IMG/VR virus record: IMGVR_UViG_3300048565_000032
Length of the DNA: 47,761 nt
Reading direction: 5' to 3' (one strand)
Source of the DNA: a virus
Made by a program: the position numbers and the translations under genes. The notes beneath the pieces are model-generated. The model did not search any database and was not told the origin of the DNA. It was given only the letters and a program-made list of their open reading frames with translations. Below, in pieces: positions 1-37,605 of the stretch (position 1 is its first letter; each line of letters starts with the position of its first letter).

Positions 1-127
1 CATCTCGACGTTGCAGGAGGCGCGCTTGTCTGCGCTGTCGGCCGCCTTGTAGTCGCTCGATGCGGCGTCGCGCTGTCCCTCCACCCACGCCCGCAGTGCC
101 CGCAGCGCCTTGCCGTCCGGCGCGGGC
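1..127. repeat. Terminal direct repeat, left copy (identical to 47635..47761)
   Basis: Read directly: bases 1-127 (catctcgacgttgcaggagg...ccgtccggcgcgggc) recur exactly at 47635-47761. This implies a circular or terminally redundant molecule of 47,634 unique bp. Confidence 0.95.
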
Positions 128-23311: not shown

Positions 23312-26300
23312 TGTCCGGGTTGTCTCTGCCACCGAACGCAACCACTCCGACCGCAGACCAGCTGACTGAGATCCGACGGCGGCAGGAGGCGGCCCAGGCC
23401 GCCGAGAAGGACCAGCGGATGATGGCGGTGTTCCGCCAAGCGGTGACCATCAACCCGGAGGCTCGCGCCGAGGCGGAGTCGATCTCGAAGAGGCTCGGGA
23501 AGCCCGTCGAAGCGCTCACCGACAACATCGACGTTGCGCGCGAGATGCTGAAGGTCCGCGAGCTGCAGGAGACACGGCGGCAATACCCGAACCTCGACAA
23601 GCGCCTCGACAACCTGGAGTTCACGAGCCTCGTCCACGACGACCTCGGCAACCTGAAGTTGACCGAAGACACGTTCGACTGGGTGAAGCGAAACTTCCGC
23701 ACCGGCAAGTTCATGAACGAGCGCGGCGAGATCGGCGCGCGCATGATGGCCGGGCTGTCCAACTCGGATGACACGCTGCGCCTCGAACAGCTGAAGCTGT
23801 TGACGCAAGACGCTGGGCAGGACACCGGGTTCGTGGCGTCCGCTCTGCAGCTCAGTGGCCAGATGATCGGCCCGATGGCGAAGTCCTTCGCCGCTTCCAC
23901 CGCCGCCGCCGGCGCCGTGTCCCTGTTCTCGGGCCCCGGTGCCACCGTGACCGGGCCGGCTGCCTTCACGACGACTATGCTGGCGTCTACCTTCGCCCAG
24001 ACTGCGGTGATCGAGGGCGGCAACGCTTTCCTCGACATGCGCGACAAGGGCTACGGCGAGGACGTGTCGATGTTCAGCGCCGCCTTCGTCGGCCTCGCCA
24101 ACGGCGCCCTGGAGACCGTCGGTCTCGGCATCGTCCTGAACCCGATCCGCAAGGCCGTGATCCGACGCACGGCCAACAAGCTCGGGCAGGCGCTCGCGCG
24201 GCCGACGACCAAGGAAGCCATCACCACGCTCGCCAAGGACTACTTCGCGAGCGTGTTCGGCGAGGCCGGGCAAGAAGGGGTTCAGGAGTTCGTCAACGTC
24301 ATCGGCGAGGCGTTCGCTCGCGACGCTACCGACCCGAACCTGCCGGCGCCGTCGTGGGGTGAGATCGGGGAGCGAGTCTCGGACGCCTTCATCACGACGG
24401 CCAAGGGCATGGCGCTGCTGGGCCTGCCCGCGCCGGCGATCCGCTTCCACATGGACACGCGCGCAGCTGCCGACGCAAAGGAGCACCAGAACTTCATGCT
24501 CGGGCTGAAGAAGGGCGCGGCAGAGTCGAAGCTCCGCCAGCGCAACCCGAGTGTCTACAAAGACTACCTCCGCAAGACGGCGGAAGGGTCGCCGGTCGAG
24601 AAGCTCTACTTGGACGGCAAGGTGTTCTCCGAGACGCTGCAGCAACTCGACAACGTCGAGGGGTCGGATGTCACCGGGCCTGTCGCCTCCCAGCAGCTGG
24701 AGGCCGCCATGCCCGGCATCCTCGAGCGCGTCGCCGAGGCCGCACGCACCAACAGCGACGTCACGATCGACACGGCGGAGTTCGCTGCGAAGCTGACCGA
24801 GACCGCGGTCGGCGACGCCCTCATGCCGCACACGCGCCCGAGCGAGAGCGCCCGCAGCTTTGCGGAGGTCGAGGCGCGCGCCGAAGACGTGAAGGCGATG
24901 AAGGCCGAGGCCGACGAACTGCTGCAGGAGAAGAGGACCACCGACAAGGAGTTCGTCGAATCGGCGGACCGTGTCGAGGAGAACCTCTACCAGCAGCTCA
25001 ACGCCACCGGTGTCTTGACGGAGAAGGCGATGTCGCGCGCCGTGGCTCAGCAGTATGTGAGCTTCGTCGTCGTGAACGCAGCGCAGCTGAAGATGACGCC
25101 GGAGGAGTTCTACAAGCGCTACCCCTACCGGGTGTTCGCGGCCGAGGCGCAACCGCGCGACAGCGCGGCGTTCGACCAGACCGGTGACCGCCGGACAGAC
25201 TCGCCGGAGTTCCGCAACTGGTTCGGCGACAGCAAGGTGGTCGACGAGAAGGGCCAGCCGCTCGTCGTCTACCACGGCACGGCATCGACGTTCGACACGT
25301 TCAGCAAACAGAAGGCGCAGGACAAAGAGGGGCGTCGGCTTGGAATGGGTTGGGGTGCGGGCAAGTTCTACTTCGCCAGTTCTGGCGAAGCGGCGAGCAG
25401 CGCAGCGCAGTTTGCGGAGATGACGGGTAGGGGCAAACAGCCGCAAGTGATGCCGGTCTACCTGTCGATGCGGAAGCCGATTGATGCAGGTAGCTACCTA
25501 GCGCGAGTGGCTGCGCGCGTCGCCAAAGGTGCCACGCGGGACGCCGCAATCGCGCAGACGGATCGCGAGGTCCGGAAGGAAGGTTACGACGGCATCGTTG
25601 ACCATGTGTCCGGCGGTATCGCAGTCTTCGACCCGACGCAGATCAAGTCCGTCAACAACCGCGGCACCTACGATCCCACCGACCCGAACGTCCTGAACCA
25701 GCTCGGCGACTCGCGCGTCAAGACACCGACGCCTGCGGTCCGCAAGCTGCTGAAGAGCCTCACGCCGGCCGAGCAGCGCAAGATCACCGACAAGACCGCA
25801 GCGAAGGTGATCGCGCAGCTGAAGAAGCTGCCGTCCGCGAAGGAGATGGCGGCCGTCGCTCAGGGTGGCGTCGCGAAGCGCGGGTGGTATCGCGAGAGCG
25901 CGGCGGCCCTCGAAGCTGTGTTCGGCGCGGACGCCCCGCGGTTCGCGATGCTCCTCGCCGCTCTCTCGCCGCAGACCAGCGTCGAGCAGAACCTCACCAA
26001 CGCTCTGAACGTCTGGAAGACCTGGATCGACGCCGGCCGCCCCACCGGCCGTGACGCGATCATCGACGTCATGGCCAGCAGCGTGCAGGGCAAGAGCCGT
26101 GAGAGCGTGCTCGAAGCGTGGATCCCGAACAGCGTCCGCGCCCTCACGACGGACAGTCCGAGCGGCTCCTTGCTGTCCGGACCGAAGGTGAACAGCTTCT
26201 TCCGCAACCTGATCGGTGACACCACCGAGGTCACGCTCGACGCGTGGATGGCCAACTACGCGCTCGTCGACCAAGCGATGTTCGGCGGGTCTCTGACGAA

Positions 26301-29300
26301 GAGCGACTCCGGCAAGGGAACAGGCTACTTGGCGTTCTCGGCGCGTGTGCGCGAGACCGCTGCGCTGCTGACCAAGGAGACCGGAAAGACGTGGACCCCG
26401 GCCGAGGTGCAGGAAACGATCTGGTCGTGGGCGAAGACGCTCTACGAGCTGCAGACCGGGGAGGCCTCTGCGACGCAGCTGCTCGCCGAGGGTAAGCTGA
26501 CCGATGAGCTGATCAACTCGACCCCGGACTTCAGCAATCTCTTCCACGAACCGAACTACGCAACGATCCTCAACGAGGCTGGCTATGGCGCGCAACTCGA
26601 AATCCTCCGTGGCACTCGCGGCTCTGCTGATGTCCAGCTTGGTCAAGAAGCCGGATCTGGCAGCGAAGCAGAAGCTACTGCTGGAGAAGCTCGCCGCCGA
26701 CTCCAGCTCCAAGCGGCCAAGCGCCTCGAACGACTCCGCGAACAACGAGCTACCGCCTCCGCCCTCCGCAACGGCTTCGAGCAGCTCGGGCTCACCGATG
26801 ACGAAAGCGGAGACGTCGGTGGAGGGGCGGCTGCGGGACAATCTCCTGTCTACGGAACCGCGCGCGAAGGAAGCACCCGCGTCCGAGCCGTCCACTACTC
26901 CAAGCAGCCCCGAACCTTCCTCAACGGAGCAGCCTACGGCACCGGGCTCAGCGGACAGGAACGCTCTCGCGTAGCGGGCGACCCGATCCTCGGGCAGCGC
27001 ATCTACTTCTACGTCGACGCGGGCACGGGGATCACACCCGAGATCGGTGTCGGAACGGTCGGCCACGAGGTCGTCCTCGAAAACGTCTACGACATCAACG
27101 AGGACCCGCTCGGCATCATCGCCGAGTGGAAGAAGCAGCGAGCCGAGACCGGTGCTACCCTGAACGACATGGAGCTGGCGATCCACACCGCCGGCTTCGA
27201 TGGCTACTTCGTCCCGGCCGTCGGCGCAGCCGTGCTCGTCGGGCCACAACACACGAACGTCTCAGTTCGACAGATCGGTGACACGAATGGACCGCAAACA
27301 GATCGAAGCAACCAAGCCCCGCAGGGAGCAGTTCCAGACCCGAGCGGAGTTCGAGGAGGCTCTGGGGTTCTGGATGAGTCGTTCCGGCAGAGCCCTGTCG
27401 ACGATGCCCCCCTCCGAGGACTCCCCCAAACCGTCCGACACGCCGGCGAAGACGTAGCGTTCGGCCCGTTCCGCACCGCGCGTGAAGCCGCGGCGCGATA
27501 CATGGAGAGGGCAGGGCTCGAATACAACCCGCCGCGCGACTACGTCCAAGTCGATCGTGCGCGTGCGACGCGCATCGCGCAGGCCTTCGAGGAGATGAAG
27601 CACGACCCGGGCAGCCCGGAAGTGCAAGCTGCCTACGACGCGATGATCGATGAGACCATCGCGCAGTGGCAGGTGATCAAGGAGACCGGGCTGCAGGTCG
27701 AGTTCATCGACGGGCCGGACCCCTACCAATCGCCTCGCGACGCGATCCTCGACGTCACGCAGAACAACCACCTCTATGTCTTCCCGACGACGTCTGGCTT
27801 CGGCGGCTCCGAGTCCGCCAACGTCGACATCTCCGGCAACCCGCTGTTGCGCGTCGTCGAGGGCGAGGAGATCAGCGGGCGCCCGGTGCAGGCGAACGAC
27901 ATCTTCCGCATCGTCCATGACTACTTCGGTCATGTGAAGGAGGGCGTCGGCTTCCGTGCTCGCGGTGAGGAGAACGCGTGGCAGCAGCACATGGCGATGT
28001 ATTCGCCGCTCGCGCGCAAGGCCGCGACGAGCGAGACGCGCGGCCAAAACAGCTGGGTCAACTTCGGACCGTTCGCTGAGTCCAACCAGACCGCCAACGG
28101 TGCCGACACGCAGTATGCACCGCAGAAGATCGGCCTGCTCCCCGACTGGGTTGTCGAGGAAGGCTACGCCGGCGACGCCCTCGCCGCCGGAGAGCGGAAG
28201 AAGCCGCAGGGAACCTTCTCGCCTCGGACGCTGACGGCGTTGTTCTACAAGAAGGCCAACATCTCGACCGTCCTGCACGAGACCGCGCACTACTACCTGA
28301 CTGTCTACGCCGACATGGCGGCGCGGCCCGACGCGACGCCTATGATGCGCGCGAACATGCAGACCCTGCTCGACTGGTTCGGGGTCAAAGACCTCGCGAC
28401 GTGGAACGCGCTGTCGATCGAGCAGCAGCGCAAGCACCACGAAGCGTTCGCCTACAACTACGAGGTCTACGCGTTCGAAGGCAAGGCGCCGAGCAAGGAG
28501 ATGAAGACGATCTTCGCACGCTTCGCCGAGTGGCTGCGCGTGTTCTACAAGGATCTGCTGGAGCGCAGGAACCGCGTCTACCGCCGCGAGTTCGGCACCG
28601 ACCTGCCGATGCTGACCAAGGAAGTGCGGCAGGTCATGGACCGCATGCTCGCGAGCGAGGAGGCCGTTGCGCTGACCTACGCGCAGCGCGACCTGCTGCC
28701 CGTGTTCCAGACGCAAGAGGAGTCCGGCTTCGACGACGCGAAGTGGGCAGCCTACCAAGCGATGTGGCAGGAAGAGCGCGACGAAGCGGTCGCCGAGGTC
28801 ACGCGCGCCAGCCTCCGCAACGTCCAGTGGCTGTCGGGCGCTGAAGGCAAGGTTGCCAAAGCGCTGCAGGCTCGGAACAAGGAAGAGCGCGCGAGGATCC
28901 GCCGCGAAGTCGTGCAAGAGGTGCAGAACAACCCGCGCGACCGCGCACGCCGGTGGCTGCGCAAGGGAGAGGTCGTCCAGCCGGACGGGACTGTCGACGT
29001 CGAGCCGAAAGGCACGCCGCACAAGCTCGACCGCGCCACGGTGGTGTCGATGCTACCGCCCGGCACCGATCTGAAGCCGCTGAGCGGGATGCTGAAGAAC
29101 GACGGCCTTCACCCCGACCACGTCGCGGAGGCGCTTGGAGGCGAGTTCAAGACGGGCCGCGCGCTGCTAGACGCCCTGATCGAGATGCGTCCGTTCGAGG
29201 ACATCGTCAACGACCGCACCGACCAGCGCATGCTGGCTGAGCACGCCGAACTGGTCGAGGGGACACCCGAGTGGCGGGACTTCGTCAACCGCGCCGTGAA

Positions 29301-32064
29301 CAGCGAAGCGAGGGCGCGGTTCGCCGCTGCCGAGCAGCGCGCTCTGCAGAAGGCGACCACCCCTGTCCGCGTCCTGCTCGACTCCGCTCGCGAGGCCGCA
29401 CGTCTCTCGTTGGAGCGGTCGAAGGTCGCCGACGTGGACCCGCGCAAGCTGACGGGCACCTTGGACTACATCACCCGCAACCTGCACGAGGCGCAGCGCA
29501 AGGGCGACACCGACTCGATGATCATCTGGAAGCGGAAGCAGCTGCTCTACCACATGCTGGTGGCGCAGGCATACGAGGCGAAGCAAGAGATCGCGTCGGC
29601 ACGCGACGAGTTCCGCAAGATGTTCCGTTCCGACAAGAAGCTGGCGAAGGAGCGCAACGTCGACCTCGTGCTGGCGGCGCGGTGGGTGCTGTCGAAGTTC
29701 GGCCTGACCAGCGAACTGCAGGCGAAGGCGTCCGAGACGGCTCTCGCCACCGCGCAGGAGAACGACCCCGAGCGGCTCGAAGACACGAAGCCTCTGATCG
29801 ATGCCGCAGTCGCCGGCGCGAAGCCTTTCGACCAGCTCACGCTGGCGGAGTTCCGCGACCTGCGCAACACGGTCCGCTACCTGTGGGCGCGCAGCAAGCG
29901 CGACATGGAGATCGAGGTCTCGGGGCGCAAGGTCAAGCGCTCCGCCGCGGTCGCCGAGATGCTCGTGGAGATGAAGAAGGTGCTCGGCGAAGCGCCGGTC
30001 GAGACGAGCCCGATCACTGACGAGGCTCGCAGGTCGAGCCGCTACGCCAGCACCTTCGCGAAGCTGACGCGCATCGAGCACTGGGCGCGCAAGATGGACG
30101 GTGGGACCACGGGCCCGGTGACGACCTACTTGTTCCGCCCGCTGCGCGAACGCTACGACTCCTACATGGTCGATCGCGAGCGCCTCGTGAAGCGCATCCA
30201 CGAAGGCCTGCAGAAGCTGACGTTCAGCGACGCGAAGATCGAAGCCACGGAGCTGATCGGCGCGCCGGTGCTCAACGGCACGAAGCAGCTGCTCGGGGCG
30301 GTCCAGCACGCAGGCAACAACTCGAACCTGCGCAAGCTGTTGCTCGGCTACGGGTGGACCGAGGATCTCGGCAAGGGTGAGTTCAACCGCTCGCGGTGGG
30401 ACAACTTCTTGACGCGCATGATGGCGGAAGGGCACCTGACCAAGGAGCACCTCGACTACCTGCAGATGGTCTGGACGCTCAACGAGAAGGAGCTGAAGCC
30501 GATCGCGCAGAAGGTCAACCGCGAAGTCTACGGTCTGTTCTTCGAACAGATCGAGGCGACGCCGTTCGAGACGCCGTGGGGCACCTACGCCGGCGGCTAC
30601 ATGCCGGCGAAGCCCGACCCGGACCACCCACGCAACAGCGACATCCGTCAGCGGGAAGCGCTCGACGGGATCCAGGCGATGGAGAGCGACTTCCGCAACT
30701 CGATGTCCGGCACGGCGCGCGGCTTCACGATCTCACGCAACCTCTCGACTCGTCCGCTCACTCTCGACATCCGGCTGCAGTCGCGCCACATCGACGAGGT
30801 GCTGCGCTTCGTGCACATGCAGCCTGCGCTGCGCGACGTGAAGGGACTGCTGAAGGACCGTGAGTTCGCCAGCTACTTGAACGGCGTCGACCCGACCGCG
30901 ATCAAGGACATGCTGATCCCGTGGCTCGAAGACGTCGCGCGCAACCAAGTCACGAAGCCCAGCTCGATGCCCGCGCTCGACAAGTTCTTCGGCTTCCTGC
31001 GCCGCAGCACCGGCTTGAACTTCATGTTCGCCTCGTTCCGCAACGCCGCGCAGCAGATCACCGGGCTCAGCAACGTCCTCGTCTACGTGAAGGGTCGCCA
31101 CGTCCGTGACGCGATGTGGCGCTACTACACCAGCGCGCCGAGCACGACGAACTGGGTGGTCGAGCGGTCGAAGTTCATGCAGTCGCGCCTGCGCGATCAG
31201 GTCGGGCAGCTGCACGACGACATCGACCTCCTGCTCGATCCGTCGTGGATGGGCAACCTGAAGCGCTGGACCAACAAGCACGGCTACTTCGCTCAGCGGT
31301 TCATGCAGAACCAAGTCGACGTCGTCGCGTGGCTTGCCTCCTACCAGCAGGAGATGGAGAAGTCCGGGGCCGACGTGAGTGACGCCGACGCCGTCGCCGC
31401 CGCGATCGCCGAGGCTGACGCTGTCGTGCGCCTGACGCAGGGCAGCGTCACCTCGATCGACACCGCTGCCTACGAGCGTTCCTCGGCCTTCGCCCGTCTC
31501 TTCACGCAGTTCAGCTCCTACTACAACACGGTCCTGAACCAGATCACGTCGGCACCGCCGGGGTCGAAGGCCCGCGCCTCGCTGCTCGGGCTGGTCATGC
31601 CGGCGTTCGGTGCGGCCGTCATCGCCGCGGTCGCCTCGGGCGGCGCGGAGTTCGACGACCGGGACGAGAACGGCACCATGGACGAATACCTGGAGTGGCT
31701 GTTCTCGACCCAGGCGCGCGCTGGGCTGGCCACAGTGCCCGGATTCGGCCCGCTCCTGGCGCAGGCCGCGTCGGGGGATAGCCGCGCTGGCGACCGCCTG
31801 ACGCCCGCGCCGGCGTGGTCCTCGCTGCAGGCGCTGGCCCGCTCGGTGTCGAACCTCGCCAGCGGCGACCCGCGAGGCGGCGGCCGGCAAATCTACGACG
31901 CGTTCACGGTGTTCGCGGTGGCCACCGGCATCCCGGTCGGGGGCCTGGGGCGGTCGATCGGCTACGCGGTCGACGTCGCGAGAGGCGACGTCGTGCCGCG
32001 CCACTTGGCGGATCGCATCCGCGGCACCCTGAGCGGCAACGCCGGCTTCGGCACGCGACGCTAG
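23311..32064 (+). CDS. Giant polyvalent virion protein (2,917 aa): N-terminal hydrophobic region, ART-like (H-Y-E) domain, HDxxGH domain, HExxH metallopeptidase motif, C-terminal TM segment
   Basis: Uninterrupted 8,754-nt ORF. FRNWFGDSKVVDEKGQPLVVYHGT...GKFYFASS...EGYDGIV lies at about 25200-25680. IFRIVHDYFGHVKEG lies at about 27900. HETAH is at 28276-28290. The TM-like segment LLGLVMPAFGAAVIAAVASGG lies near 31580. Confidence 0.7.
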   Translation: MSGLSLPPNATTPTADQLTEIRRRQEAAQAAEKDQRMMAVFRQAVTINPEARAEAESISKRLGKPVEALTDNIDVAREMLKVRELQETRRQYPNLDKRLDNLEFTSLVHDDLGNLKLTEDTFDWVKRNFRTGKFMNERGEIGARMMAGLSNSDDTLRLEQLKLLTQDAGQDTGFVASALQLSGQMIGPMAKSFAASTAAAGAVSLFSGPGATVTGPAAFTTTMLASTFAQTAVIEGGNAFLDMRDKGYGEDVSMFSAAFVGLANGALETVGLGIVLNPIRKAVIRRTANKLGQALARPTTKEAITTLAKDYFASVFGEAGQEGVQEFVNVIGEAFARDATDPNLPAPSWGEIGERVSDAFITTAKGMALLGLPAPAIRFHMDTRAAADAKEHQNFMLGLKKGAAESKLRQRNPSVYKDYLRKTAEGSPVEKLYLDGKVFSETLQQLDNVEGSDVTGPVASQQLEAAMPGILERVAEAARTNSDVTIDTAEFAAKLTETAVGDALMPHTRPSESARSFAEVEARAEDVKAMKAEADELLQEKRTTDKEFVESADRVEENLYQQLNATGVLTEKAMSRAVAQQYVSFVVVNAAQLKMTPEEFYKRYPYRVFAAEAQPRDSAAFDQTGDRRTDSPEFRNWFGDSKVVDEKGQPLVVYHGTASTFDTFSKQKAQDKEGRRLGMGWGAGKFYFASSGEAASSAAQFAEMTGRGKQPQVMPVYLSMRKPIDAGSYLARVAARVAKGATRDAAIAQTDREVRKEGYDGIVDHVSGGIAVFDPTQIKSVNNRGTYDPTDPNVLNQLGDSRVKTPTPAVRKLLKSLTPAEQRKITDKTAAKVIAQLKKLPSAKEMAAVAQGGVAKRGWYRESAAALEAVFGADAPRFAMLLAALSPQTSVEQNLTNALNVWKTWIDAGRPTGRDAIIDVMASSVQGKSRESVLEAWIPNSVRALTTDSPSGSLLSGPKVNSFFRNLIGDTTEVTLDAWMANYALVDQAMFGGSLTKSDSGKGTGYLAFSARVRETAALLTKETGKTWTPAEVQETIWSWAKTLYELQTGEASATQLLAEGKLTDELINSTPDFSNLFHEPNYATILNEAGYGAQLEILRGTRGSADVQLGQEAGSGSEAEATAGEARRRLQLQAAKRLERLREQRATASALRNGFEQLGLTDDESGDVGGGAAAGQSPVYGTAREGSTRVRAVHYSKQPRTFLNGAAYGTGLSGQERSRVAGDPILGQRIYFYVDAGTGITPEIGVGTVGHEVVLENVYDINEDPLGIIAEWKKQRAETGATLNDMELAIHTAGFDGYFVPAVGAAVLVGPQHTNVSVRQIGDTNGPQTDRSNQAPQGAVPDPSGVRGGSGVLDESFRQSPVDDAPLRGLPQTVRHAGEDVAFGPFRTAREAAARYMERAGLEYNPPRDYVQVDRARATRIAQAFEEMKHDPGSPEVQAAYDAMIDETIAQWQVIKETGLQVEFIDGPDPYQSPRDAILDVTQNNHLYVFPTTSGFGGSESANVDISGNPLLRVVEGEEISGRPVQANDIFRIVHDYFGHVKEGVGFRARGEENAWQQHMAMYSPLARKAATSETRGQNSWVNFGPFAESNQTANGADTQYAPQKIGLLPDWVVEEGYAGDALAAGERKKPQGTFSPRTLTALFYKKANISTVLHETAHYYLTVYADMAARPDATPMMRANMQTLLDWFGVKDLATWNALSIEQQRKHHEAFAYNYEVYAFEGKAPSKEMKTIFARFAEWLRVFYKDLLERRNRVYRREFGTDLPMLTKEVRQVMDRMLASEEAVALTYAQRDLLPVFQTQEESGFDDAKWAAYQAMWQEERDEAVAEVTRASLRNVQWLSGAEGKVAKALQARNKEERARIRREVVQEVQNNPRDRARRWLRKGEVVQPDGTVDVEPKGTPHKLDRATVVSMLPPGTDLKPLSGMLKNDGLHPDHVAEALGGEFKTGRALLDALIEMRPFEDIVNDRTDQRMLAEHAELVEGTPEWRDFVNRAVNSEARARFAAAEQRALQKATTPVRVLLDSAREAARLSLERSKVADVDPRKLTGTLDYITRNLHEAQRKGDTDSMIIWKRKQLLYHMLVAQAYEAKQEIASARDEFRKMFRSDKKLAKERNVDLVLAARWVLSKFGLTSELQAKASETALATAQENDPERLEDTKPLIDAAVAGAKPFDQLTLAEFRDLRNTVRYLWARSKRDMEIEVSGRKVKRSAAVAEMLVEMKKVLGEAPVETSPITDEARRSSRYASTFAKLTRIEHWARKMDGGTTGPVTTYLFRPLRERYDSYMVDRERLVKRIHEGLQKLTFSDAKIEATELIGAPVLNGTKQLLGAVQHAGNNSNLRKLLLGYGWTEDLGKGEFNRSRWDNFLTRMMAEGHLTKEHLDYLQMVWTLNEKELKPIAQKVNREVYGLFFEQIEATPFETPWGTYAGGYMPAKPDPDHPRNSDIRQREALDGIQAMESDFRNSMSGTARGFTISRNLSTRPLTLDIRLQSRHIDEVLRFVHMQPALRDVKGLLKDREFASYLNGVDPTAIKDMLIPWLEDVARNQVTKPSSMPALDKFFGFLRRSTGLNFMFASFRNAAQQITGLSNVLVYVKGRHVRDAMWRYYTSAPSTTNWVVERSKFMQSRLRDQVGQLHDDIDLLLDPSWMGNLKRWTNKHGYFAQRFMQNQVDVVAWLASYQQEMEKSGADVSDADAVAAAIAEADAVVRLTQGSVTSIDTAAYERSSAFARLFTQFSSYYNTVLNQITSAPPGSKARASLLGLVMPAFGAAVIAAVASGGAEFDDRDENGTMDEYLEWLFSTQARAGLATVPGFGPLLAQAASGDSRAGDRLTPAPAWSSLQALARSVSNLASGDPRGGGRQIYDAFTVFAVATGIPVGGLGRSIGYAVDVARGDVVPRHLADRIRGTLSGNAGFGTRR

Positions 32065-32067
32065 TAG

Positions 32068-32141
32068 TGGCAGGACGGGGTGGGGTCGAACCACCATCGC
32101 CCGATTTGGAGGCGGGCATTCTACCGTTGAACTACCGCCCC
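32068..32141 (-). tRNA. tRNA-Trp (anticodon CCA), CCA-3' encoded
   Basis: Hand fold of the reverse complement. Acceptor GGGGCGG/CCGTCCT (two G-U pairs), D arm GTTC-AACGGTA-GAAT, anticodon arm CCCGC-CTCCAAA-TCGGG (C-U at 31-39), variable CGAT, T arm GGTGG-TTCGACC-CCACC, then discriminator G and CCA. Confidence 0.8.
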
Positions 32142-32166
32142 CGAGAAAAGACTCCGCGGCTAGGGA

Positions 32167-32291
32167 TGTGACAGCAGGTGGCTTCGCCTCGGCCAGCGGC
32201 GCTTGCGCGCCGGCAGGATTCGAACCTGCGTATCTTTGCGGTGAAAGATGGAAGCCGTCACGGCATCCGCGGATTGACAACAGCTGTCACA
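32167..32291 (-). ncRNA. Candidate Y-like RNA (unit 4): 9-bp terminal stem enclosing a hairpin and tRNA-like module 3 (32179..32229)
   Basis: 5' TGTGACAGC (32291-32283) pairs perfectly with 3' GCTGTCACA (32175-32167). Inside: GCAGG-TTCGAAT-CCTGC, CGGCGC-GCAA-GCGCCG, C, TGGC-CGAGGCGAA-GCCA. Confidence 0.55.
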
Positions 32292-32373
32292 CACCGAATC
32301 CGGCGACGAGCCGTTGGTCGACCGGTGCGTGACAGCCGAAGAAGAGAGCCCGACAAGGGATCGTCACAGCTTT

Positions 32374-32427
32374 GCCCTACCGTTTGGGCTACGGGCCCGT
32401 GGTGGGCCTGCCGAGATTCGAACTTGG
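32374..32427 (-). ncRNA. Permuted tRNA-like module 2 (T arm, closed acceptor helix, D arm)
   Basis: CCAAG-TTCGAAT-CTCGG (one A-C mismatch), CAGGCCC-ACCAC-GGGCCCG, TA, GCCC-AAACGGTA-GGGC. Confidence 0.6.
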
Positions 32428-32494
32428 ATGCAAGCCGGGACAGCATTCGGGCAGTGAGAGTCGGCGACAAGGGATCGCAGCAGTCTTCTTTCTC

Positions 32495-32547
32495 GCTCTA
32501 CCGTTGAGCTACACCGGGCAGGGCCCGATGGCTGGACTCGAACCAGC
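32495..32547 (-). ncRNA. Permuted tRNA-like module 1 (T arm, closed acceptor helix, D arm)
   Basis: GCTGG-TTCGAGT-CCAGC, CATCGGG-CCCTG-CCCGGTG (7 bp including one G-U), TA, GCTC-AACGGTA-GAGC. Confidence 0.65.
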
Positions 32548-32787
32548 AACCTAGACCTTAGAGGGGATGTAGACCGCTACTGCATTCGCCGAAATGGTGC
32601 GCGGACAAGAGGTGTGACAGGTGTGTCTTGGCAAAGCATCGGGGAGCCCTGATCAAGGGGCCCGGTAGCCTCGTGGTGAAGATGAAGCCCGTCACGGCAT
32701 TCCGCGTCTGGGTGTGCGACAAGGGTCGGCCGGAGCGAGGTATCATGGCGAGATGAACGCCCCGGTCAGCATTCGCACGCCGGCACT

Positions 32788-34404
32788 CTAGCGCCCGAAC
32801 TCACGAATGCAAGAGGGCCAGTCCTTGTTCTGTAGCCAAGCGGCGACAGACGTGAACACCGCGTCCGAGAAGCCGGCGACGCGGAGAGTGTCCTTCCGCT
32901 TCGGCAGCTGGTCGGTGGCGTTCGGGCTGATGTTGATGCGGACCTGCTTCGCGTTCGGGTTCTTGCGCTTGATGTCGTCCCACGCGGCCACAGTGCCGGG
33001 CGCCCGGTCGCGGGTGTGGGTCGCGTAGTTGTAGGTGAAGCTCATGCCACTTGAGTCGAGCCAGCTCTCGTTGTCCGAGATCAGGATGAACGTGTCCACG
33101 TCGCGCTTCTCGCTCGCGAGCAGCCGCATCGGCGCCGAGCAGTCCGTGCCGCCGCCCGCGTTCGCCAGCTTCTGCGCCATCGTCGGGATGCTGTCGAGCG
33201 GGTTCAACGGGACAATGACCGCATTGTTCGCGAACGTCATCACGCGCGTCTGCGGCGAGCGCCGCACGATGGCCGCCGCGAACAGCGCCGCCACGTCCAT
33301 GTAGGTGATCTCGGTCGACGCGTTGCCGCGATACCCGGTCACCGGGTTCTTCATCGAACCGGAACAGTCGACCGCGACGTAGACGTTGCCTTCGAGCGCG
33401 GGCACCGCCGCGAGCGAGTGATCGAGCGCCTGCCCGAGTGCATACTTCAGCTCGTGCGGCATGTCGGCGTCCTTGGCGACCATCGAGAACGCCTGCAGCA
33501 GCTGGTAGGGGAACTGCTTCGCCTTCAGCACCTCCTCCTTCGAGGAGAGGCGCGCGACGATCTTCTTCAGCAGCTCGGGGTTGCTCTTGAAGACGCCGTG
33601 CCGCTGCGCGGTCACGAGGTTCATGCGCGTGAACTGGAAGCCGCCCCGATCGAACAGCTGCTCCCAGTGCGCCGTCGTCAGCGGGACGGTGTCGATCATG
33701 TTGAACGGCACGTCCGGCAGCGGCTTCGTCTGGTCGGCGCGGAACGCGAGCGTGTCCTGCACCAGCTGCGGCAAGGCCTCCGGGTTCTCGACCGGCTTGC
33801 CGATCAGCATCCGGTAGAGGGTGGCGCGCTCGCGGTCGAGGGTGAAGCCGAGCGTGTCCATGTCCTTCGACACCGGTCGCGGGCGTGCGAGCTTGATGAT
33901 GTCGCCGAGGCTCGGATCCTTGGCGATCGACTGCTTCCACAGGTAGTCGACGTTCGCGCGGTTCAGCCAGTTCGACACCAGCCGCTTGCCGACCGAGCCG
34001 AGCGAGCGGCGGCCGAAGCGACCGGAGCGCACCGCCTGCACGAAGTTCGAGAGCATCTTCGCGTTGTTGATCACCTCGTCGAACAGCGCCGCGGTGAACG
34101 CGCCGCTCTTCTTGCCGAAGAGGTAGGCCAGCAGAACCGCCGGCGTGTCCTTCATGAAGCCAGCGCCGCGCGCGTAGCGCGCGACCTGCGCGACGAACGC
34201 GTCGTCGCACTTCGCGGCCAGCTCCAGAATCTGCGCGAGCTGAGTCTCGGCCGAGACGTAGAACGTGTCGCCGAAGAAGCCGGTCACCGCCAGCTGCGCG
34301 AGAGCCTCCTCGGGCTCCATCGCGTAGGCCGGCGCGCCGGCGTTGTTGGTGGCGTCGGGGGCGACGTAGAGGGACGGGGAGGAAGCAAAGGTCTTCTTGT
34401 TCAT
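32788..34404 (-). CDS. rsr: Ro60/Rsr orthologue (TROVE domain + vWA domain with MIDAS motif)
   Basis: N-terminus TNNAGAPAYAMEPEEALAQLAVTGFFGDTFYVSAE...VARYARGAGFMKDTPAVLLAYL is TROVE-like. The C-terminal vWA domain has DCSGS (VAVDCSGSM), GGGTDCSAP and ILISDNESW. ATG 34404 is preferred (GGAG 9 nt upstream); an alternative ATG lies at 34446. Confidence 0.85.
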   Translation of the reverse strand: MNKKTFASSPSLYVAPDATNNAGAPAYAMEPEEALAQLAVTGFFGDTFYVSAETQLAQILELAAKCDDAFVAQVARYARGAGFMKDTPAVLLAYLFGKKSGAFTAALFDEVINNAKMLSNFVQAVRSGRFGRRSLGSVGKRLVSNWLNRANVDYLWKQSIAKDPSLGDIIKLARPRPVSKDMDTLGFTLDRERATLYRMLIGKPVENPEALPQLVQDTLAFRADQTKPLPDVPFNMIDTVPLTTAHWEQLFDRGGFQFTRMNLVTAQRHGVFKSNPELLKKIVARLSSKEEVLKAKQFPYQLLQAFSMVAKDADMPHELKYALGQALDHSLAAVPALEGNVYVAVDCSGSMKNPVTGYRGNASTEITYMDVAALFAAAIVRRSPQTRVMTFANNAVIVPLNPLDSIPTMAQKLANAGGGTDCSAPMRLLASEKRDVDTFILISDNESWLDSSGMSFTYNYATHTRDRAPGTVAAWDDIKRKNPNAKQVRINISPNATDQLPKRKDTLRVAGFSDAVFTSVAAWLQNKDWPSCIREFGR

Positions 34405-34452
34405 CTTCAGGGTCTCCAGTAGTCCCGCAGGTCTACTGGAGTTCACCCTTGA

Positions 34453-37400
34453 CTACAAGCCCGGCCTGTGCCGATCCCACATCGCGCCCTGCCATGGGTA
34501 GGCGCGCAGCTCCGTCTGCTCGGTCGCCATGTAGCGATCCATGTAGTCGAAGAACGCCGGCTGGTTCCAGAACGGGCGCAGACCCATCGCGCGCATGGCG
34601 AGCACGCACCCCGACCACGAGATGGCGGAGCAGCACCGCCGGTAGTCGTTCTCGCCTGGGTTCTTCACCCACCGGTGGTCGTCGCCTGCCGGCGACTGCG
34701 CGTGGAAGTTCCCCCACTCCGGCAGACCGACGTCGGCCGCGGTGTAGCCGCCGAAGCCCCAGTTGTAGACGCCCGGCGAGGTCTCCTGCACGTAGAACGT
34801 CTGCCCATCCTCGCTGAAGGGGATGACGTTGCGCGCGTCGCCGGGCGTGAAGATGGTCGGCGCGTAGGTGGTGCCGGCCGCCAGCATCGCGTCGTCGTGG
34901 AGCACGCGCCCAGCGAAGAGGATCGGAAACTTGCGCCCGTTGCAGTGGCCGTTGACACCCCACTTCGCCCCGAGCTTCATGTGCTCGAAGTTGTCGATCC
35001 CCATCTGCGTCAACGCGATCACGATCTTCCGCTTCTGTGCGTTGGTCAGGTTCGTGTTCGCGAGCAGCGCGGCGTCGCCGATCTGCCGAGTGAACCGCTG
35101 GTAGTAGTCGCCGAGCCCGGCCTGCGGGTGCATGTAGCGCGAGGTCCAGTTCGGGAAGTGATCGAGCCACAGCGTTGCGTAGAACCAAGCCTCTACCTCT
35201 GCGACGCTCGGCGCGCCGGCAGCCGGGGTGAGATCCGCGAGGAGCGCGTAGTCGAGGTCTTGCTCGCGGAAGCGCACGGTCTTGTCCGCGCCGGCGTAGG
35301 CGGGTCGGAACGCGTCGGCGCTCGGCGCCGCCGCCAGAACGGTCAACACCGCAGCCGTCTGCAGCGCGGACCACTGCCCGTTCGCCGGCGCGAAGGCCGG
35401 CGTCGTCGAGATCAGCGACCCGGTTGTGATCGTCAACGGCAGCTGCGCGCCGACGTTCATCGCCGGCGTCCACCGTGGCGCGTTGGTCTCGTCGCGCAGG
35501 AAGAAGTCGCCGGGGTTCACCGTCGAGATGTCGCTGTCGTAGAGCGACGAGTCGTAGCCTTGCTTGCCGTCGGCGCGCGGCGCCGGGCTGAGCATCGACC
35601 CTCCCGTGGTGCGGCCCGTCGGCTGGACCACGACGCCCGGCGTGATCGCCGCGATCGTGACCGGGCCGACCACCCACGGGTCACCGTTGCAGAAGCGTCC
35701 GGCCGGGCGCGGCTGCGCGAAGGTCCAGGTCACCCCGAACTGAGTCATCGACGACGCTGTCGGCGCCGGTGCCGCCACGACACCGGGGGCCAGCCACGCC
35801 GTTTCCTTGGTCTCGTTCGCTCCGCTGGTCAGCTGCGCCCACACCGCGCCCGCCTGTGGGTCGGCCGGGTCGTTGCGGAGCACCACCGCCGGCGCCAGAC
35901 CCATGCCGAAGTAGTTGAACACCTCGTCCGCGGGCGCCGTGCCGGCGACCGGGCGCTGCGGGCTCGACACCCAGCGCCCACTCTGCAGGAGCCACGCGTC
36001 GCGCATGACCGCCCTGGCGCCCTCCAGGGCGATGCTTCGAGCGAGGGGGATGTCGAGCACCCGTCCGGCCAGATCGAGGCCGTAGCACCCGACGCCCTGC
36101 TGCCAGGGGATCCACCACGCCCCCGCCCCGAGGCGCGGGTCATCGACCCTGACGTCCCAGATCGCGAGGGGGCGCGTCCCGAGCGCGGCGTAGACCAGAC
36201 GCACGCGGTCCTCGTAGCGCGCCCTGACGCGCGCAGCGAGCGCCCGGTCCTCCAGGTCGCGCCACAGGCCGACGACCAGGATCCCCGCCCAGCCGACGCT
36301 ACGGGCCGCGTCAGGGCCGCTGGTCGACCACCCAGGCCGCACGGTCTCGCCGAAGAGGAAGAGGCGGGCCTGCTGCTCCAGCTCCCACTGCAGGGCAGCG
36401 GAGTCGGTCAGGCGGGCAGCTGCGATGACGGTGTTGTAGAGCCAGTGCTCGCGATCGGGGCCCAGCCACCCGTGGGTGTCGGGCAAAACGCCCGTCTTGC
36501 CGAGGCGGTCTGGGGAGACCCCGAGGTTGAAGTGGGGGCGGCCGTTCCAGGTGACGCAGTTCGGGTGCGCGATCGGATCCGCGAAGGAGCCGTCCGCTTC
36601 GAGGTGGTGGCAGGGCCGGGCAAGCATCTTCAGCGCCGCGAAGTAGGCGACCTGCTCCGCCCCGACGCCGCCCGGCAACAGGCTTTCGCCGCGCACGAAG
36701 ACCTGATCCTCCTGCGCACCGGTGTCGCCGGCGGTCGGGTTCGCGCCGATCGTGCCGGCCTCCCAGGTGTGCAGCCGGCGGAGGGCTTCGGGCCACTGGC
36801 CCATCCAGGCGCGGACATCGAATCCGGGCGGGTAGCTCGGGTTGCCGTCCGGCAGCAAACGAGCAATGGCGACGGCGGTCGCCGCGCGCAGCCCGGCGGC
36901 GTTCACTTGGAACCACCCGGCCTCGTCGACATCGCCGAGGATCCGCCGCCACGCGAGCGTGACCGCGGCGCCGCGCGCCTGACCGTCCGCGAAGGCGGTC
37001 CCCGCCGGCACGATCGGACTGCCCCAGCCGGCGCCCAGGACGTGCACGTAGGCGTCGCCGAACCGGAACGTCAGGGCGTCGCTGGTCTCGCCCATGTCGG
37101 GGATCGAGCCGTTGCTGCAGCAGACCACTACCTCTCCGGTGGCCATGCCCGGCTGGTCAGGGAGCCACCGCAGCCACGCGTCGACGTTCAGCATCGGCGT
37201 GACACGCCCGCGCATGCGACAGCGCCAGCCGGCACCGTCGGGGGTGACGGACACCAAGCCGAGGGGCGCGCCGTTCACCGTCGCGAGGCCGCCGAAGAAC
37301 GCGACCGGGTCCGCCGGCAAGCTCAGCTCGGGCGCCGGCGACGGTGCCGCGTCGGCGAGGCGCAGGTCTCGCTCTTCGTGCGGCGCGAGCGTGACGTGAA

Positions 37401-37605
37401 CATCGAGCGCCCAGACGTCGAGCCCGATCTTGCGCCCGAGCACGAAGCGCTCACCCGTCGGCAGGGTGCCGGCGTCGTGCGTCGGGCGCGTGTCGGTGGT
37501 CGTCCGCAACCAGCCGGTGAAGGGGTGCGGCGCGTAGTTCGCGACGCGGACGGTCTGCGCGGTAGCCGCGCAGCTGAGGAGGAACGCAAGCAGTGTTCGG
37601 AGCAT
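34453..37605 (-). CDS. Large secreted (or lipo-) protein of unknown function (1,050 aa)
   Basis: Signal peptide MLRTLLAFLLSCAATAQT (ATA-Q cleavage site or an LLSC lipobox). Trp/Gly/Pro-rich globular composition, with Cys motifs GHCNGRKF and YRRCCSAISWSGC. I recognised no catalytic family. Confidence 0.7.
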   Translation of the reverse strand: MLRTLLAFLLSCAATAQTVRVANYAPHPFTGWLRTTTDTRPTHDAGTLPTGERFVLGRKIGLDVWALDVHVTLAPHEERDLRLADAAPSPAPELSLPADPVAFFGGLATVNGAPLGLVSVTPDGAGWRCRMRGRVTPMLNVDAWLRWLPDQPGMATGEVVVCCSNGSIPDMGETSDALTFRFGDAYVHVLGAGWGSPIVPAGTAFADGQARGAAVTLAWRRILGDVDEAGWFQVNAAGLRAATAVAIARLLPDGNPSYPPGFDVRAWMGQWPEALRRLHTWEAGTIGANPTAGDTGAQEDQVFVRGESLLPGGVGAEQVAYFAALKMLARPCHHLEADGSFADPIAHPNCVTWNGRPHFNLGVSPDRLGKTGVLPDTHGWLGPDREHWLYNTVIAAARLTDSAALQWELEQQARLFLFGETVRPGWSTSGPDAARSVGWAGILVVGLWRDLEDRALAARVRARYEDRVRLVYAALGTRPLAIWDVRVDDPRLGAGAWWIPWQQGVGCYGLDLAGRVLDIPLARSIALEGARAVMRDAWLLQSGRWVSSPQRPVAGTAPADEVFNYFGMGLAPAVVLRNDPADPQAGAVWAQLTSGANETKETAWLAPGVVAAPAPTASSMTQFGVTWTFAQPRPAGRFCNGDPWVVGPVTIAAITPGVVVQPTGRTTGGSMLSPAPRADGKQGYDSSLYDSDISTVNPGDFFLRDETNAPRWTPAMNVGAQLPLTITTGSLISTTPAFAPANGQWSALQTAAVLTVLAAAPSADAFRPAYAGADKTVRFREQDLDYALLADLTPAAGAPSVAEVEAWFYATLWLDHFPNWTSRYMHPQAGLGDYYQRFTRQIGDAALLANTNLTNAQKRKIVIALTQMGIDNFEHMKLGAKWGVNGHCNGRKFPILFAGRVLHDDAMLAAGTTYAPTIFTPGDARNVIPFSEDGQTFYVQETSPGVYNWGFGGYTAADVGLPEWGNFHAQSPAGDDHRWVKNPGENDYRRCCSAISWSGCVLAMRAMGLRPFWNQPAFFDYMDRYMATEQTELRAYPWQGAMWDRHRPGL

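What the first reader, a model, noticed from the sequence alone, without database searches (positions are those of the whole stretch)
32788..34404. Phage-encoded Ro60/Rsr orthologue with an intact MIDAS motif
The ORF has a TROVE-like N-terminal region and a C-terminal vWA domain with DxSGS, a GGGTD threonine and a downstream Asp. This is the bipartite architecture of Ro60/Rsr. In bacteria, Rsr with Y RNA is known to scaffold exoribonucleases for structured-RNA decay under stress. Rsr/Y-RNA loci have been reported in some phages but are rare. Here the gene closes the early/replication arm and is co-oriented with its putative RNA partners and a tRNA. A plausible role during infection is remodelling host RNA surveillance or rRNA/tRNA turnover, but that is inference.
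Basis: partly seen in the sequence, partly recalled or inferred. Interest (0 to 1): 0.8.

Follow-up and report, generated by a model that had tools for sequence, protein, structure and literature searches.

The report
Phage Ro60/Rsr gene with Y-RNAs
This phage genome carries a real copy of the ring-shaped RNA-binding protein Ro60/Rsr, followed by five small partner RNAs and a tRNA; this gene-plus-RNA package is already known from bacteria and other phages, so it is a sound but ordinary find.

Summary
ORF 32788-34404 (minus strand, 538 aa) is a full-length Ro60/Rsr-family protein. It matches Pfam vWA_Ro60 and TROVE. It aligns over residues 18-470 with D. radiodurans Rsr. Its AlphaFold model (pLDDT 88.9) matches every solved Ro60/Rsr structure over its full length (TM 0.60-0.75). 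The MIDAS residues D346, S348, S350, T420 and D444 are invariant in 60 homologues.

Downstream on the same strand lie five Y-RNA-like modules, two short and three with a tRNA-like domain. Then comes tRNA-Trp. The window is a complete podovirus genome of about 47.6 kb.

The closest cellular homologue (Pseudomonas, 46% identity) sits in the rtcR-rsr-Y RNA-rtcB-rtcA RNA-repair operon. It has the same layout of two short and three long RNAs. The phage carries rsr and the RNAs but no ligase, cyclase or regulator.

The kind is known. Y RNAs next to Ro60 were reported in 22 phages in 2014, and a Thermus phage Ro60 with its Y RNAs and host PNPase was characterised in 2025. I found homologues in 152 deposited phage records and at least 192 viral contigs.

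Verdict: a new member of a known kind. Its function in infection is inferred only. Interest 0.3.

The parts
32788..34404 (-). rsr: Ro60/Rsr-family protein, 538 aa (ATG 34404, stop 32790-32788)
34414..34417 (-). GGAG Shine-Dalgarno, 9 nt upstream of the rsr ATG. Only 48 nt separate rsr from the stop of the upstream 1050-aa ORF, and no promoter-like site was found there.
33400..34353 (-). N-terminal TROVE/HEAT-repeat ring region (about residues 18-335, almost all alpha-helical in the model)
32791..33387 (-). C-terminal vWA domain (about residues 340-538). MIDAS residues: D346/S348/S350 (33355-33369), T420 (33145-33147), D444 (33073-33075).
32708..32781 (-). Y1: short Y-RNA-like stem-loop (YrlB-like). 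Closing stem GUGCG/CGCAC flanks GAAUGC ... CCCUUGUC. Starts 6 nt after the rsr stop.
   Evidence: YrlB 23 bits; R1 27.8 bits, E 1e-4; not in the model's training set
32600..32706 (-). Y2: short Y-RNA-like module without a tRNA-like domain (CGCGGAAUGC ... CUCUUGUCCGCG)
   Evidence: (R1 27.6 bits, E 1.3e-4; not in the training set)
32456..32594 (-). Y3: YrlA-like Y RNA with a Ro-binding stem plus canonical T-arm (GGUUCGAGUCC) and D-arm (GUAGCUCAACGGUAGAGC)
   Evidence: (YrlA 50.3 bits, E 1e-9)
32342..32455 (-). Y4: YrlA-like Y RNA with a weaker T-arm and an intact D-arm
   Evidence: (YrlA 42.2 bits)
32281..32338 (-). Long, near-perfect hairpin between Y4 and Y5, with no U tract. Role unknown; it could be a processing site or a remnant of a module.
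   Evidence: -37.1 kcal/mol, z -5.9, 0 of 200 shuffles as stable
32148..32275 (-). Y5: YrlA-like Y RNA with a perfect T-arm, a degenerate D-arm and variant stem motifs (CGGAUGC ... CCCUAGCCG)
   Evidence: (YrlA 30.8 bits)
32068..32141 (-). tRNA-Trp (CCA) with an encoded CCA end. It starts 6 nt after Y5, and its 3' end lies 3 nt from the stop of the converging 2917-aa gene.

Best explanation
The ORF encodes a phage-borne Rsr, a Ro60-family ring protein made of a HEAT-repeat TROVE ring closed by a vWA domain with a metal-binding MIDAS site. With the five Y-RNA-like genes and the tRNA-Trp that follow it on the same strand, it forms one RNA-protein cassette at the junction of the two genome arms.

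Shown here: the protein family and fold, the intact MIDAS residues, the five RNA modules with a covariation-supported structure, the shared orientation and tight spacing, and the match in layout to the rsr-Y RNA segment of the bacterial rtcR-rsr-Y RNA-rtcB-rtcA RNA-repair operon.

Inferred from characterised homologues:
- The RNAs are made from a common transcript and trimmed by tRNA-processing enzymes.
- Each binds the outer surface of the Rsr ring through its conserved closing stem (CGAAUGC ... CCCUUGUCG).
- The resulting particles engage host RNA-decay machinery, most probably the 3'-5' exoribonuclease PNPase. This happens in the D. radiodurans RYPER complex and in Thermus phage phiLo.
- The phage thereby redirects or damps host structured-RNA and tRNA turnover during infection.

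Because the phage copy lacks RtcB, RtcA and RtcR, it is uncoupled from the host's damage-sensing control.

My estimates: identity as an Rsr/Y-RNA module about 0.95; RNP formation about 0.8; action through PNPase about 0.35.
For: Protein:
- Pfam vWA_Ro60 and TROVE.
- PDB 2nvo Rsr E 2e-18 over residues 18-470, and phage phiLo Ro60 (9kop/9l5y) E 6.5e-11.
- AlphaFold2 model with pLDDT 88.9 and pTM 0.87.
- The Foldseek top 13 hits are all Ro60/Rsr at TM 0.60-0.75. The next hits are isolated vWA domains at TM about 0.2.
- MIDAS residues invariant in 60 homologues.

RNAs:
- Rfam YrlA hits at E 1e-9, 2e-7 and 5e-4, and YrlB at E 0.16, all on the rsr strand.
- In an 8-sequence alignment with relatives, 23 of 30 pairs show compensatory changes. 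88% of cells pair, against 38-49% when partners are slid; 0 of 500 shuffles reach the observed values.
- The model built from this alignment finds Y1 and Y2 independently at E about 1e-4. Nothing else in the 47.7-kb window scores better than E 0.66.

Context:
- Relatives at 59-62% identity on other phage-like contigs keep a 600-790 nt non-coding stretch with YrlA-like RNAs after rsr, with or without a tRNA.
- All 104 model hits in the 85 searched sequences (80 IMG/VR viral loci plus the window and four related loci) and all 180 in cellular loci lie on the rsr strand.
- The Pseudomonas homologue (46% identity) lies in rtcR-rsr-[2 short + 3 long Y modules]-rtcB-...-rtcA.

Literature:
- YrlA RNAs lie next to Ro60 in 254 bacteria and 22 phages (PMC4201824).
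- Phage phiLo Ro60 binds two phage Y RNAs and host PNPase and attenuates PNPase (PMC12135203).
Against: - No experiment bears on this phage. Expression, RNA ends, RNA-protein binding and any PNPase contact are untested.
- The RNAs score below Rfam's gathering thresholds (50, 42 and 31 bits against 69 for YrlA; 23 against 97 for YrlB).
- The protein is far below NCBI's Rsr equivalog cutoff (68.8 against 900 bits), so functional equivalence to the studied Rsr proteins is extrapolated.
- PNPase tethering has been shown only for the Deinococcus and Thermus-phage systems, whose Y RNAs differ from YrlA.
- No promoter or terminator was detected, so the single-transcript model is inference.
Confidence: 0.6

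Rival explanations
1. tRNA-mimic decoy. The main job of the cassette is to flood the cell with stable tRNA-like RNAs (Y3-Y5), protected by Rsr, that competitively inhibit host tRNA-cleaving defence nucleases. The linked tRNA-Trp tops up a targeted tRNA.
For: - Y3-Y5 carry T- and D-arm mimics.
- A tRNA directly follows the array.
- In 80 viral rsr loci, 280 of 280 tRNA genes are on the rsr strand and 30 loci have one within 1 kb.
- Hughes et al. proposed that the YrlA tRNA-like domain could act as a competitive inhibitor of an anticodon nuclease, and saw tRNA-Trp(CCA) halves among the damage products (PMC7790460).
Against: - YrlA-type domains lack an anticodon arm in the usual position, so many anticodon nucleases may not recognise them.
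- Two of the five modules have no tRNA-like domain.
- No nuclease target is known for this unknown host.
- This is compatible with, rather than exclusive of, the main explanation.
Confidence: 0.2
2. RNA-repair scaffold that borrows host enzymes. The phage supplies Rsr and Y RNAs, which recruit the host's RtcB ligase and RtcA cyclase to reseal tRNAs or rRNA cut during infection.
For: - The nearest cellular homologues lie in rtc operons. RtcB or RtcR is within 4 kb in 61 of 80 bacterial loci, and the RNA array layout is identical in Pseudomonas.
- The jumbo-phage review places the TROVE protein among phage RNA-repair systems (PMC7824862).
Against: - The window encodes no RtcB, RtcA, RtcR or other RNA ligase.
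- Only 1 of 80 viral loci has RtcB nearby.
- No physical Rsr-RtcB link has been demonstrated in any system I read about.
- Host RtcB is normally repressed unless RtcR is activated.
Confidence: 0.13
3. Passenger cassette. It is a recently captured piece of a host rtc operon sitting at a permissive arm junction, with no selected role in infection.
For: - The structural relatives named in the portal search (Limnohabitans phage DC33, Bordetella BPP-1, Caulobacter SR18) do not appear among the organism names listed for phages with an rsr homologue.
- The location at the convergent junction is typical of accessory genes.
Against: - The gene is intact with all invariant residues.
- No cellular genome has a relative above 47% identity, whereas relatives on phage-like contigs reach 62%. 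The capture is therefore not recent.
- The module recurs in at least 192 viral contigs.
Confidence: 0.05
4. Not an Ro60-type protein at all. It is a generic vWA/MIDAS protein, for example part of a vWA-based defence or adhesion system, whose N-terminus resembles TROVE by chance.
For: The Pfam TROVE match covers only residues 246-306.
Against: - Full-length alignments to Rsr.
- Full-length structural matches to all Ro60/Rsr entries at TM about 0.7, against about 0.2 for isolated vWA domains.
- The adjacent Y-RNA array.
Confidence: 0.02

Closest known systems
Rsr of the proteobacterial rtcR / rsr-yrlBA-rtcBA RNA-repair operon (Salmonella Typhimurium; Pseudomonas homologue P0024)
   Same: - 46% identity over the full length to the Pseudomonas protein.
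- Same domain order and MIDAS residues.
- Same downstream array of two short plus three long YrlA-type RNAs on the same strand.
   Different: - The phage has no rtcB, rtcA or rtcR, so it is not under the tRNA-fragment-sensing regulator.
- A tRNA-Trp follows the array in place of rtcB.
- There are two small insertions in the protein (about residues 178-192 and 453-467).
Thermus phage phiLo Ro60 with Yrl1/Yrl2 (PDB 9kop, 9l5y; PMC12135203)
   Same: - A phage-encoded Ro60 ring with phage-encoded Y-like RNAs.
- Structural match at TM 0.66/0.75 and sequence match at E 6.5e-11.
   Different: - Only about 20-23% identity.
- phiLo has two Y-like RNAs. This phage has five, three of them with tRNA-like domains.
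- PNPase binding has been shown for phiLo and is untested here.
Deinococcus radiodurans Rsr-Y RNA-PNPase (RYPER) complex (PDB 2nvo)
   Same: - Best sequence match in the PDB (E 2e-18, residues 18-470).
- Identical MIDAS motifs.
   Different: - 23% identity.
- The Deinococcus Y RNA (Yrn1) is a separately evolved Y RNA (PMC4201824).
- The system is chromosomal and stress-induced.
'Ro-like RNA binding protein' of actinobacteriophages (Streptomyces, Gordonia and Mycobacterium phages; PHROG 850)
   Same: - Same PHROG family (E 3.4e-38).
- Phage-borne, often in tRNA-rich genomes.
- YrlA-like RNAs have been reported next to them (PMC4201824).
   Different: - About 22-24% identity.
- Those are mostly large phages (50-190 kb) of Gram-positive hosts.
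- This is a 47.6-kb podovirus whose structural genes resemble those of phages of Proteobacteria.
Myxococcus phage Mx1 TROVE-domain protein (WNM70118.1)
   Same: - Closest homologue in a cultured phage (40.5% identity, 98% coverage).
- It lies among tRNA genes on the same strand.
   Different: - Mx1 is a 170-kb phage.
- No R1 hit at E <= 0.01 in the 13.6 kb around its gene.
Vertebrate Ro60 autoantigen with Y RNAs (PDB 1yvp, 9nen)
   Same: Same ring plus vWA fold (TM 0.70) and the same MIDAS motif.
   Different: - 16% identity.
- Eukaryotic Y RNAs lack the tRNA-like domain.

Membership tests
Ro60/Rsr protein family (TROVE ring + vWA) | N-terminal HEAT-repeat TROVE domain forming the ring | tested here: met
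   Pfam TROVE at 29.4 bits, above its 23-bit cutoff but partial. Alignment to Rsr 2nvo over residues 18-470. Predicted all-helical N-terminal 335 residues. Full-length Foldseek matches to all Ro60/Rsr entries at TM 0.60-0.75.
Ro60/Rsr protein family (TROVE ring + vWA) | C-terminal vWA domain of the Ro60 type with MIDAS residues DxSxS, T and D | tested here: met
   Pfam vWA_Ro60 E 2.8e-16. D346, S348, S350, T420 and D444 are present and invariant in 60 homologues. They align to the same motifs in 2nvo.
Ro60/Rsr protein family (TROVE ring + vWA) | Y RNA gene(s) encoded nearby on the same strand | tested here: met
   Five modules lie within 640 nt downstream, all on the same strand. The same pattern holds in relatives.
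Ro60/Rsr protein family (TROVE ring + vWA) | Physical binding of Y RNA on the outer ring surface and of single-stranded RNA ends in the central cavity | not testable with these tools
   Needs EMSA, RIP-seq or a structure of the complex.
NCBIfam NF041674 RNA-bind_Rsr (equivalog) | Whole-protein score at or above the curated cutoff of 900 bits | tested here: not met
   68.8 bits. The protein is a family member but is not equivalent to the narrow group that this model defines.
RtcR-regulated RNA-repair operon (rsr-yrlBA-rtcBA) | rsr linked to rtcB/rtcA and the divergent regulator rtcR | tested here: not met
   tblastn with Pseudomonas RtcB, RtcA and RtcR finds nothing in the window, against 53, 30 and 53 of 80 bacterial loci. 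Pfam and PHROG scans of the window's larger ORFs (over about 250 aa) show no RNA ligase or cyclase. The phage carries only the rsr + Y RNA part.
YrlA (Rfam RF02553) | Score at or above Rfam's gathering threshold (69 bits) | tested here: not met
   50.3, 42.2 and 30.8 bits. E-values are 1e-9 to 5e-4 in a 2.7-kb search. There was no hit at gathering threshold.
YrlA (Rfam RF02553) | Closing stem with the CGAA(U)G motif and CUUGUC partner strand, enclosing T-arm-like and D-arm-like hairpins (tRNA mimic) | tested here: met
   Y3 and Y4 have all elements. Y5 has a degenerate D-arm and variant motifs. The structure is supported by covariation: 23 of 30 pairs have double changes and 0 of 500 shuffles do as well.
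RYPER-type complex (Rsr-Y RNA-PNPase) | Y RNA tethers Rsr to PNPase | not testable with these tools
   Known for D. radiodurans and phage phiLo (PMC12135203). The host of this phage is unknown.

The most novel reading that the evidence does not exclude
Phage rsr/Y-RNA cassettes may be stripped-down, deregulated copies of the bacterial Rtc RNA-repair operon. They have lost the ligase, cyclase and sensor, and they travel with phage tRNA genes as one 'tRNA maintenance' unit. Their purpose would be to pre-empt tRNA-cleaving abortive-infection defences, by decoying the nucleases with tRNA-like Y RNAs, by capturing host PNPase, or both. This 47.6-kb podovirus would then be a minimal natural example: one protein, five RNAs and one tRNA.
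Probability: 0.2. Interest if true: 0.6.

Novelty: new member of a known kind. Interest (0 to 1): 0.3.

Why it matters
It adds a small, compact example to the known set of phage Ro60/Y-RNA modules. The example comes from a podovirus whose structural genes resemble those of phages of Proteobacteria.

The comparison made here gives a clean contrast that bears on function. In bacteria this Rsr subfamily almost always sits with RtcB, RtcA or RtcR. In viral contigs it almost never does, and instead sits among co-oriented tRNA genes.

What phage Ro60 does during infection is still open. A cassette of one protein, five RNAs and one tRNA would be a convenient object for binding and knockout tests. However, this genome comes from a metagenome, there is no cultured phage or host, and nothing here changes current understanding.

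Tried and rejected
- Rfam at gathering threshold found only the tRNA. The Y RNAs appeared only with the E-value threshold and with my own model.
- Megablast of 24 kb of the window against deposited phages found nothing.
- A genome-collection scan with the single protein found no close relative. The alignment-based scan was needed.
- Promoter and terminator scans around the locus gave nothing above the shuffled expectation, so transcription-unit boundaries could not be set.
- The upstream 1050-aa neighbour could not be identified. It has no Pfam hit, no NCBIfam hit and no PDB sequence hit. Its only matches are PHROG 34846 of unknown function and a C-terminal similarity to mycobacteriophage hypothetical or minor tail proteins. 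It is not linked to rsr in relatives, so I did not treat it as part of the system.
- I considered the GTG at 34446 as the start and rejected it, on homologue N-termini and the Shine-Dalgarno position.
- I considered a generic vWA protein and rejected it on full-length structural matches.
- I did not map individual RNA-contact residues from vertebrate Ro60, because alignment at 16% identity would be unreliable.
Full report
**Observation**

It lies on the minus strand from the ATG at 34404 to the stop at 32790-32788 and encodes 538 aa. A longer reading from a GTG at 34446 is possible. However, homologues start at the ATG (consensus MANKxLF), and a GGAG lies 9 nt upstream of it.

The motifs quoted are present: DCSGS at residues 346-350, GGGTD at 417-421, and ILISDNES with D444. 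The codon-position GC pattern (0.60/0.44/0.93) matches that of the other genes in this 66% GC genome.

**Protein identity**

- Pfam gives vWA_Ro60 (E 2.8e-16, residues 342-451). It gives TROVE above its cutoff, but only over residues 246-306.
- The weak TROVE hit is not a sign of a missing domain. NCBIfam's Rsr model aligns residues 18-449. D. radiodurans Rsr (PDB 2nvo) aligns over residues 18-470 at E 2e-18. The Thermus phage phiLo Ro60 (9kop/9l5y) aligns at E 6.5e-11. PHROG 850 'RNA-binding protein' aligns over residues 18-521 at E 3.4e-38.
- An AlphaFold2 model built on 60 homologues has mean pLDDT 88.9 and pTM 0.87. It shows an all-helical N-terminal two-thirds and an alpha/beta C-terminal third.
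- Foldseek against the PDB returns Ro60/Rsr entries as the top 13 hits: Xenopus and human Ro60, Deinococcus Rsr and phage phiLo Ro60. TM-scores are 0.60-0.75 over more than 520 aligned columns. The next hits are isolated vWA domains at TM about 0.2.
- The five MIDAS positions (D346, S348, S350, T420, D444) are invariant in the 60-sequence alignment.
- The NCBIfam score is far below the equivalog cutoff (68.8 vs 900 bits). The protein is therefore a family member but not a close equivalent of the reference Rsr group.

**RNA partners**

Everything between the rsr stop and the end of the arm is non-coding and structured, all on the rsr strand.

- A permissive Rfam scan gives three YrlA-like matches: 32592-32458 (50 bits), 32453-32344 (42 bits) and 32273-32150 (31 bits). 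It also gives a YrlB-like match (32781-32710, 23 bits) and then tRNA-Trp(CCA) at 32141-32068. All Y-RNA matches are below Rfam's gathering scores, and none appears at gathering threshold.
- I aligned the three long modules with five from relatives' loci. They share a closing stem flanked by GAAUGC and CCCUUGUC, a second stem, an invariant CAUC, a T-arm (GGUUCGAnUCC), a variable hairpin and a D-arm (GUAGCUCAAuuGGUAGAGC).
- For this structure, 23 of 30 pairs show compensatory double changes. 88% of cells pair, against 38-49% when partners are slid by 1-3 columns. No shuffle out of 500 reaches the observed values.
- A covariance model built from this alignment, run over the whole window with filters off, recovers the three long modules. 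It also recovers two short ones that were not used to build it: Y1 (32781-32708, E 1e-4) and Y2 (32706-32600, E 1.3e-4). The next best hit anywhere in 47.7 kb is E 0.66.
- The short modules keep the closing stem and its motifs but replace the tRNA-like domain with a simple hairpin. Short modules in relatives do the same.
- A 58-nt near-perfect hairpin (z -5.9) sits between Y4 and Y5. I cannot explain it.
- Modules are 0-6 nt apart, apart from the 66-nt Y4-Y5 interval that holds the hairpin. The tRNA follows Y5 after 6 nt and ends 3 nt from the stop of the converging 2917-aa gene.

**Genome context**

The window has an exact 127-bp terminal overlap. It encodes the following:

- *Replication:* helicase, primase, DNA polymerase A, a Gp2.5-like ssDNA-binding protein and an exonuclease.
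- *Packaging and virion:* both terminase subunits, a T7-type portal/adaptor protein, the major head protein and tubular tail proteins A and B.
- *Internal protein:* a 2917-aa polyvalent protein with an ADP-ribosyltransferase domain.

It is therefore a complete podovirus genome of about 47.6 kb. The portal is 54-60% identical to those of Limnohabitans phage DC33, Bordetella BPP-1 and Caulobacter SR18. None of those appears among the organism names listed for phages with an rsr homologue (one organism name was not shown).

The gene directly upstream, 48 nt away with no promoter-like site, is a 1050-aa protein of unknown function with a signal-peptide-like N-terminus. It is not a replication gene, and nothing tells us when rsr is expressed.

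**Relatives**

- The identical protein is on record from a JGI metagenome contig of 47,777 bp.
- The nearest relatives (56-62% identity) are on metagenomic contigs, the largest 20-40 kb. The three examined have unrelated, lambdoid-looking gene sets (RecT, YqaJ, RusA). Each keeps a 600-790-nt non-coding stretch after rsr that holds YrlA-like RNAs, and two also carry a tRNA-Ile there.
- In IMG/VR at least 192 viral contigs, from 7 kb to over 500 kb, encode a relative.
- Over the 85 sequences searched (the 80 best IMG/VR loci plus the window and four related loci), all 104 model hits are on the rsr strand. Arrays of 2-6 modules are common.
- In the 80 IMG/VR loci, all 280 tRNA genes found are also on the rsr strand. 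Forty loci have a tRNA within 4 kb and 30 within 1 kb.
- In deposited phage genomes 152 of 50,697 records have a homologue. Most are Streptomyces, Gordonia or Mycobacterium phages annotated 'Ro-like RNA binding protein'. The closest is Myxococcus phage Mx1 at 40.5% identity.

**Cellular homologues**

- At least 572 bacterial species genomes encode a relative at 40-47% identity.
- The Pseudomonas protein (46% identity) lies in the canonical operon: rtcR divergent from rsr, then non-coding DNA, then rtcB and further genes ending in rtcA.
- The non-coding stretch there holds two short and three long modules, the same layout as in the window.
- Of the 80 best bacterial loci, 53 have RtcB, 53 have RtcR and 30 have RtcA within 4 kb. 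The figures for the 80 viral loci are 1, 0 and 0. The window has none.
- All 180 model hits in 70 bacterial loci are on the rsr strand, again in arrays of 2-7.
- So the phage carries the rsr + Y RNA part of the RNA-repair operon without the ligase, cyclase or sensor. A five-module array is normal for this subfamily.

**Mechanism**

The points established above are the family, the fold, the MIDAS site, the RNA structures and the linkage. The rest is inference from studied homologues:

- In D. radiodurans, Y RNA tethers Rsr to PNPase for structured-RNA decay (summarised in PMC4201824 and PMC7790460).
- In Thermus phage phiLo, the phage Ro60 binds two phage Y-like RNAs and host PNPase and reduces PNPase activity (PMC12135203).
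[quoted passage not shown] The authors suggest that Rsr and Y RNA either aid tRNA decay or that the YrlA tRNA-like domain competitively inhibits an anticodon nuclease (PMC7790460).
- YrlA RNAs are substrates of tRNA-recognising enzymes (PMC4201824). This fits processing of an array that ends in a real tRNA.

I commit to an Rsr/Y-RNA particle that acts on host RNA decay, most likely through PNPase. The decoy and host-RtcB models are live rivals that are not mutually exclusive.

**Novelty**

The kind is known. Y RNAs next to Ro60 were reported in 22 phages in 2014 (PMC4201824). A jumbo-phage survey lists the TROVE protein among phage RNA-repair functions (PMC7824862). A phage Ro60 has been solved and assayed (PMC12135203).

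This is a new member, in a small podovirus from an uncultured source. The viral-versus-cellular contrast in Rtc linkage and the strict co-orientation with tRNA genes are useful descriptive points. I did not find them stated in the papers I read, but they are not surprising. Interest 0.3.

Noticed in passing
window 34453-37605 (-): The 1050-aa ORF directly upstream of rsr has a signal-peptide-like N-terminus (MLRTLLAFLLSCAATAQT) and 3.9% tryptophan (41 W), against 1.7% across 14 large genes. The only tRNA in the genome is tRNA-Trp, 2.3 kb downstream on the same strand. There is no Pfam, NCBIfam or PDB sequence match. Its C-terminal 280 aa are about 30% identical to mycobacteriophage hypothetical or 'minor tail' proteins.
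   Followed up: partly
window 23311-32064 (+): The 2917-aa ORF carries ART-PolyVal (ADP-ribosyltransferase, residues 645-783), DUF7178 and LPD22 domains. It is a polyvalent, probably ejected, virion protein that converges on the tRNA-Trp with only 3 nt between them.
   Followed up: no
window 1-127 and 47635-47761: An exact 127-bp overlap between the two ends of the window. The contig is a complete circularly permuted or terminally redundant genome of about 47,634 bp.
   Followed up: partly
window 32281-32338 (-): A very stable, near-perfect hairpin (-37 kcal/mol, z -5.9) between Y4 and Y5, with no U tract. Its stem sequence (GCUGUCAC) and its 3' flank (CUGUUGUC) resemble parts of the Y modules. 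It may be a remnant of a module or a processing site. No equivalent spacing was seen in the Pseudomonas array.
   Followed up: partly
L006-L085 (IMG/VR loci), e.g. L010 458-5825, L062 160-5682, L021 14-6001: In viral contigs rsr is often embedded in tRNA islands. All 280 tRNA genes within 4 kb of rsr in 80 loci are on the rsr strand. One subgroup repeatedly shows tRNA-Gly(GCC) just upstream of rsr and tRNA-Thr/Glu/Gln just downstream.
   Followed up: partly
L009 3645-3716, L024 3647-3723, L046 2770-2842, L074 2851-2923, L036 2027-2103, L061 2783-2871: tRNAs with stop-codon anticodons (CTA, called 'Pyl', and TTA, called 'Stop') lie shortly upstream of rsr in several viral contigs. They are possible suppressor tRNAs of phages that recode stop codons.
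   Followed up: no
L086 4190-13357 (Pseudomonas sp., GCA_016651325.1): The bacterial operon reads rtcR / rsr - five Y modules - rtcB - a HEAT-repeat protein - an unknown 213-aa protein - RlaP - rtcA. The extra genes between rtcB and rtcA were not examined.
   Followed up: no
L091, L107, L125, L131, L160 and others (bacterial genome or MAG loci): Fifteen of the 61 bacterial loci with an rtc context also carry tRNA genes next to rsr; some, mostly Pyrinomonadaceae/Acidobacteriota MAGs, have arrays of 10-26 upstream of it. These could be genuine chromosomal tRNA arrays or phage DNA binned into MAGs.
   Followed up: no
OR845705.1 and OR851267.1 (phage collection): Two very short records (1.7 and 2.2 kb), labelled Escherichia and Salmonella phages, encode fragments 42-43% identical to this Rsr. 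They are the only enterobacterial 'phage' hits, and they are unannotated fragments.
   Followed up: no
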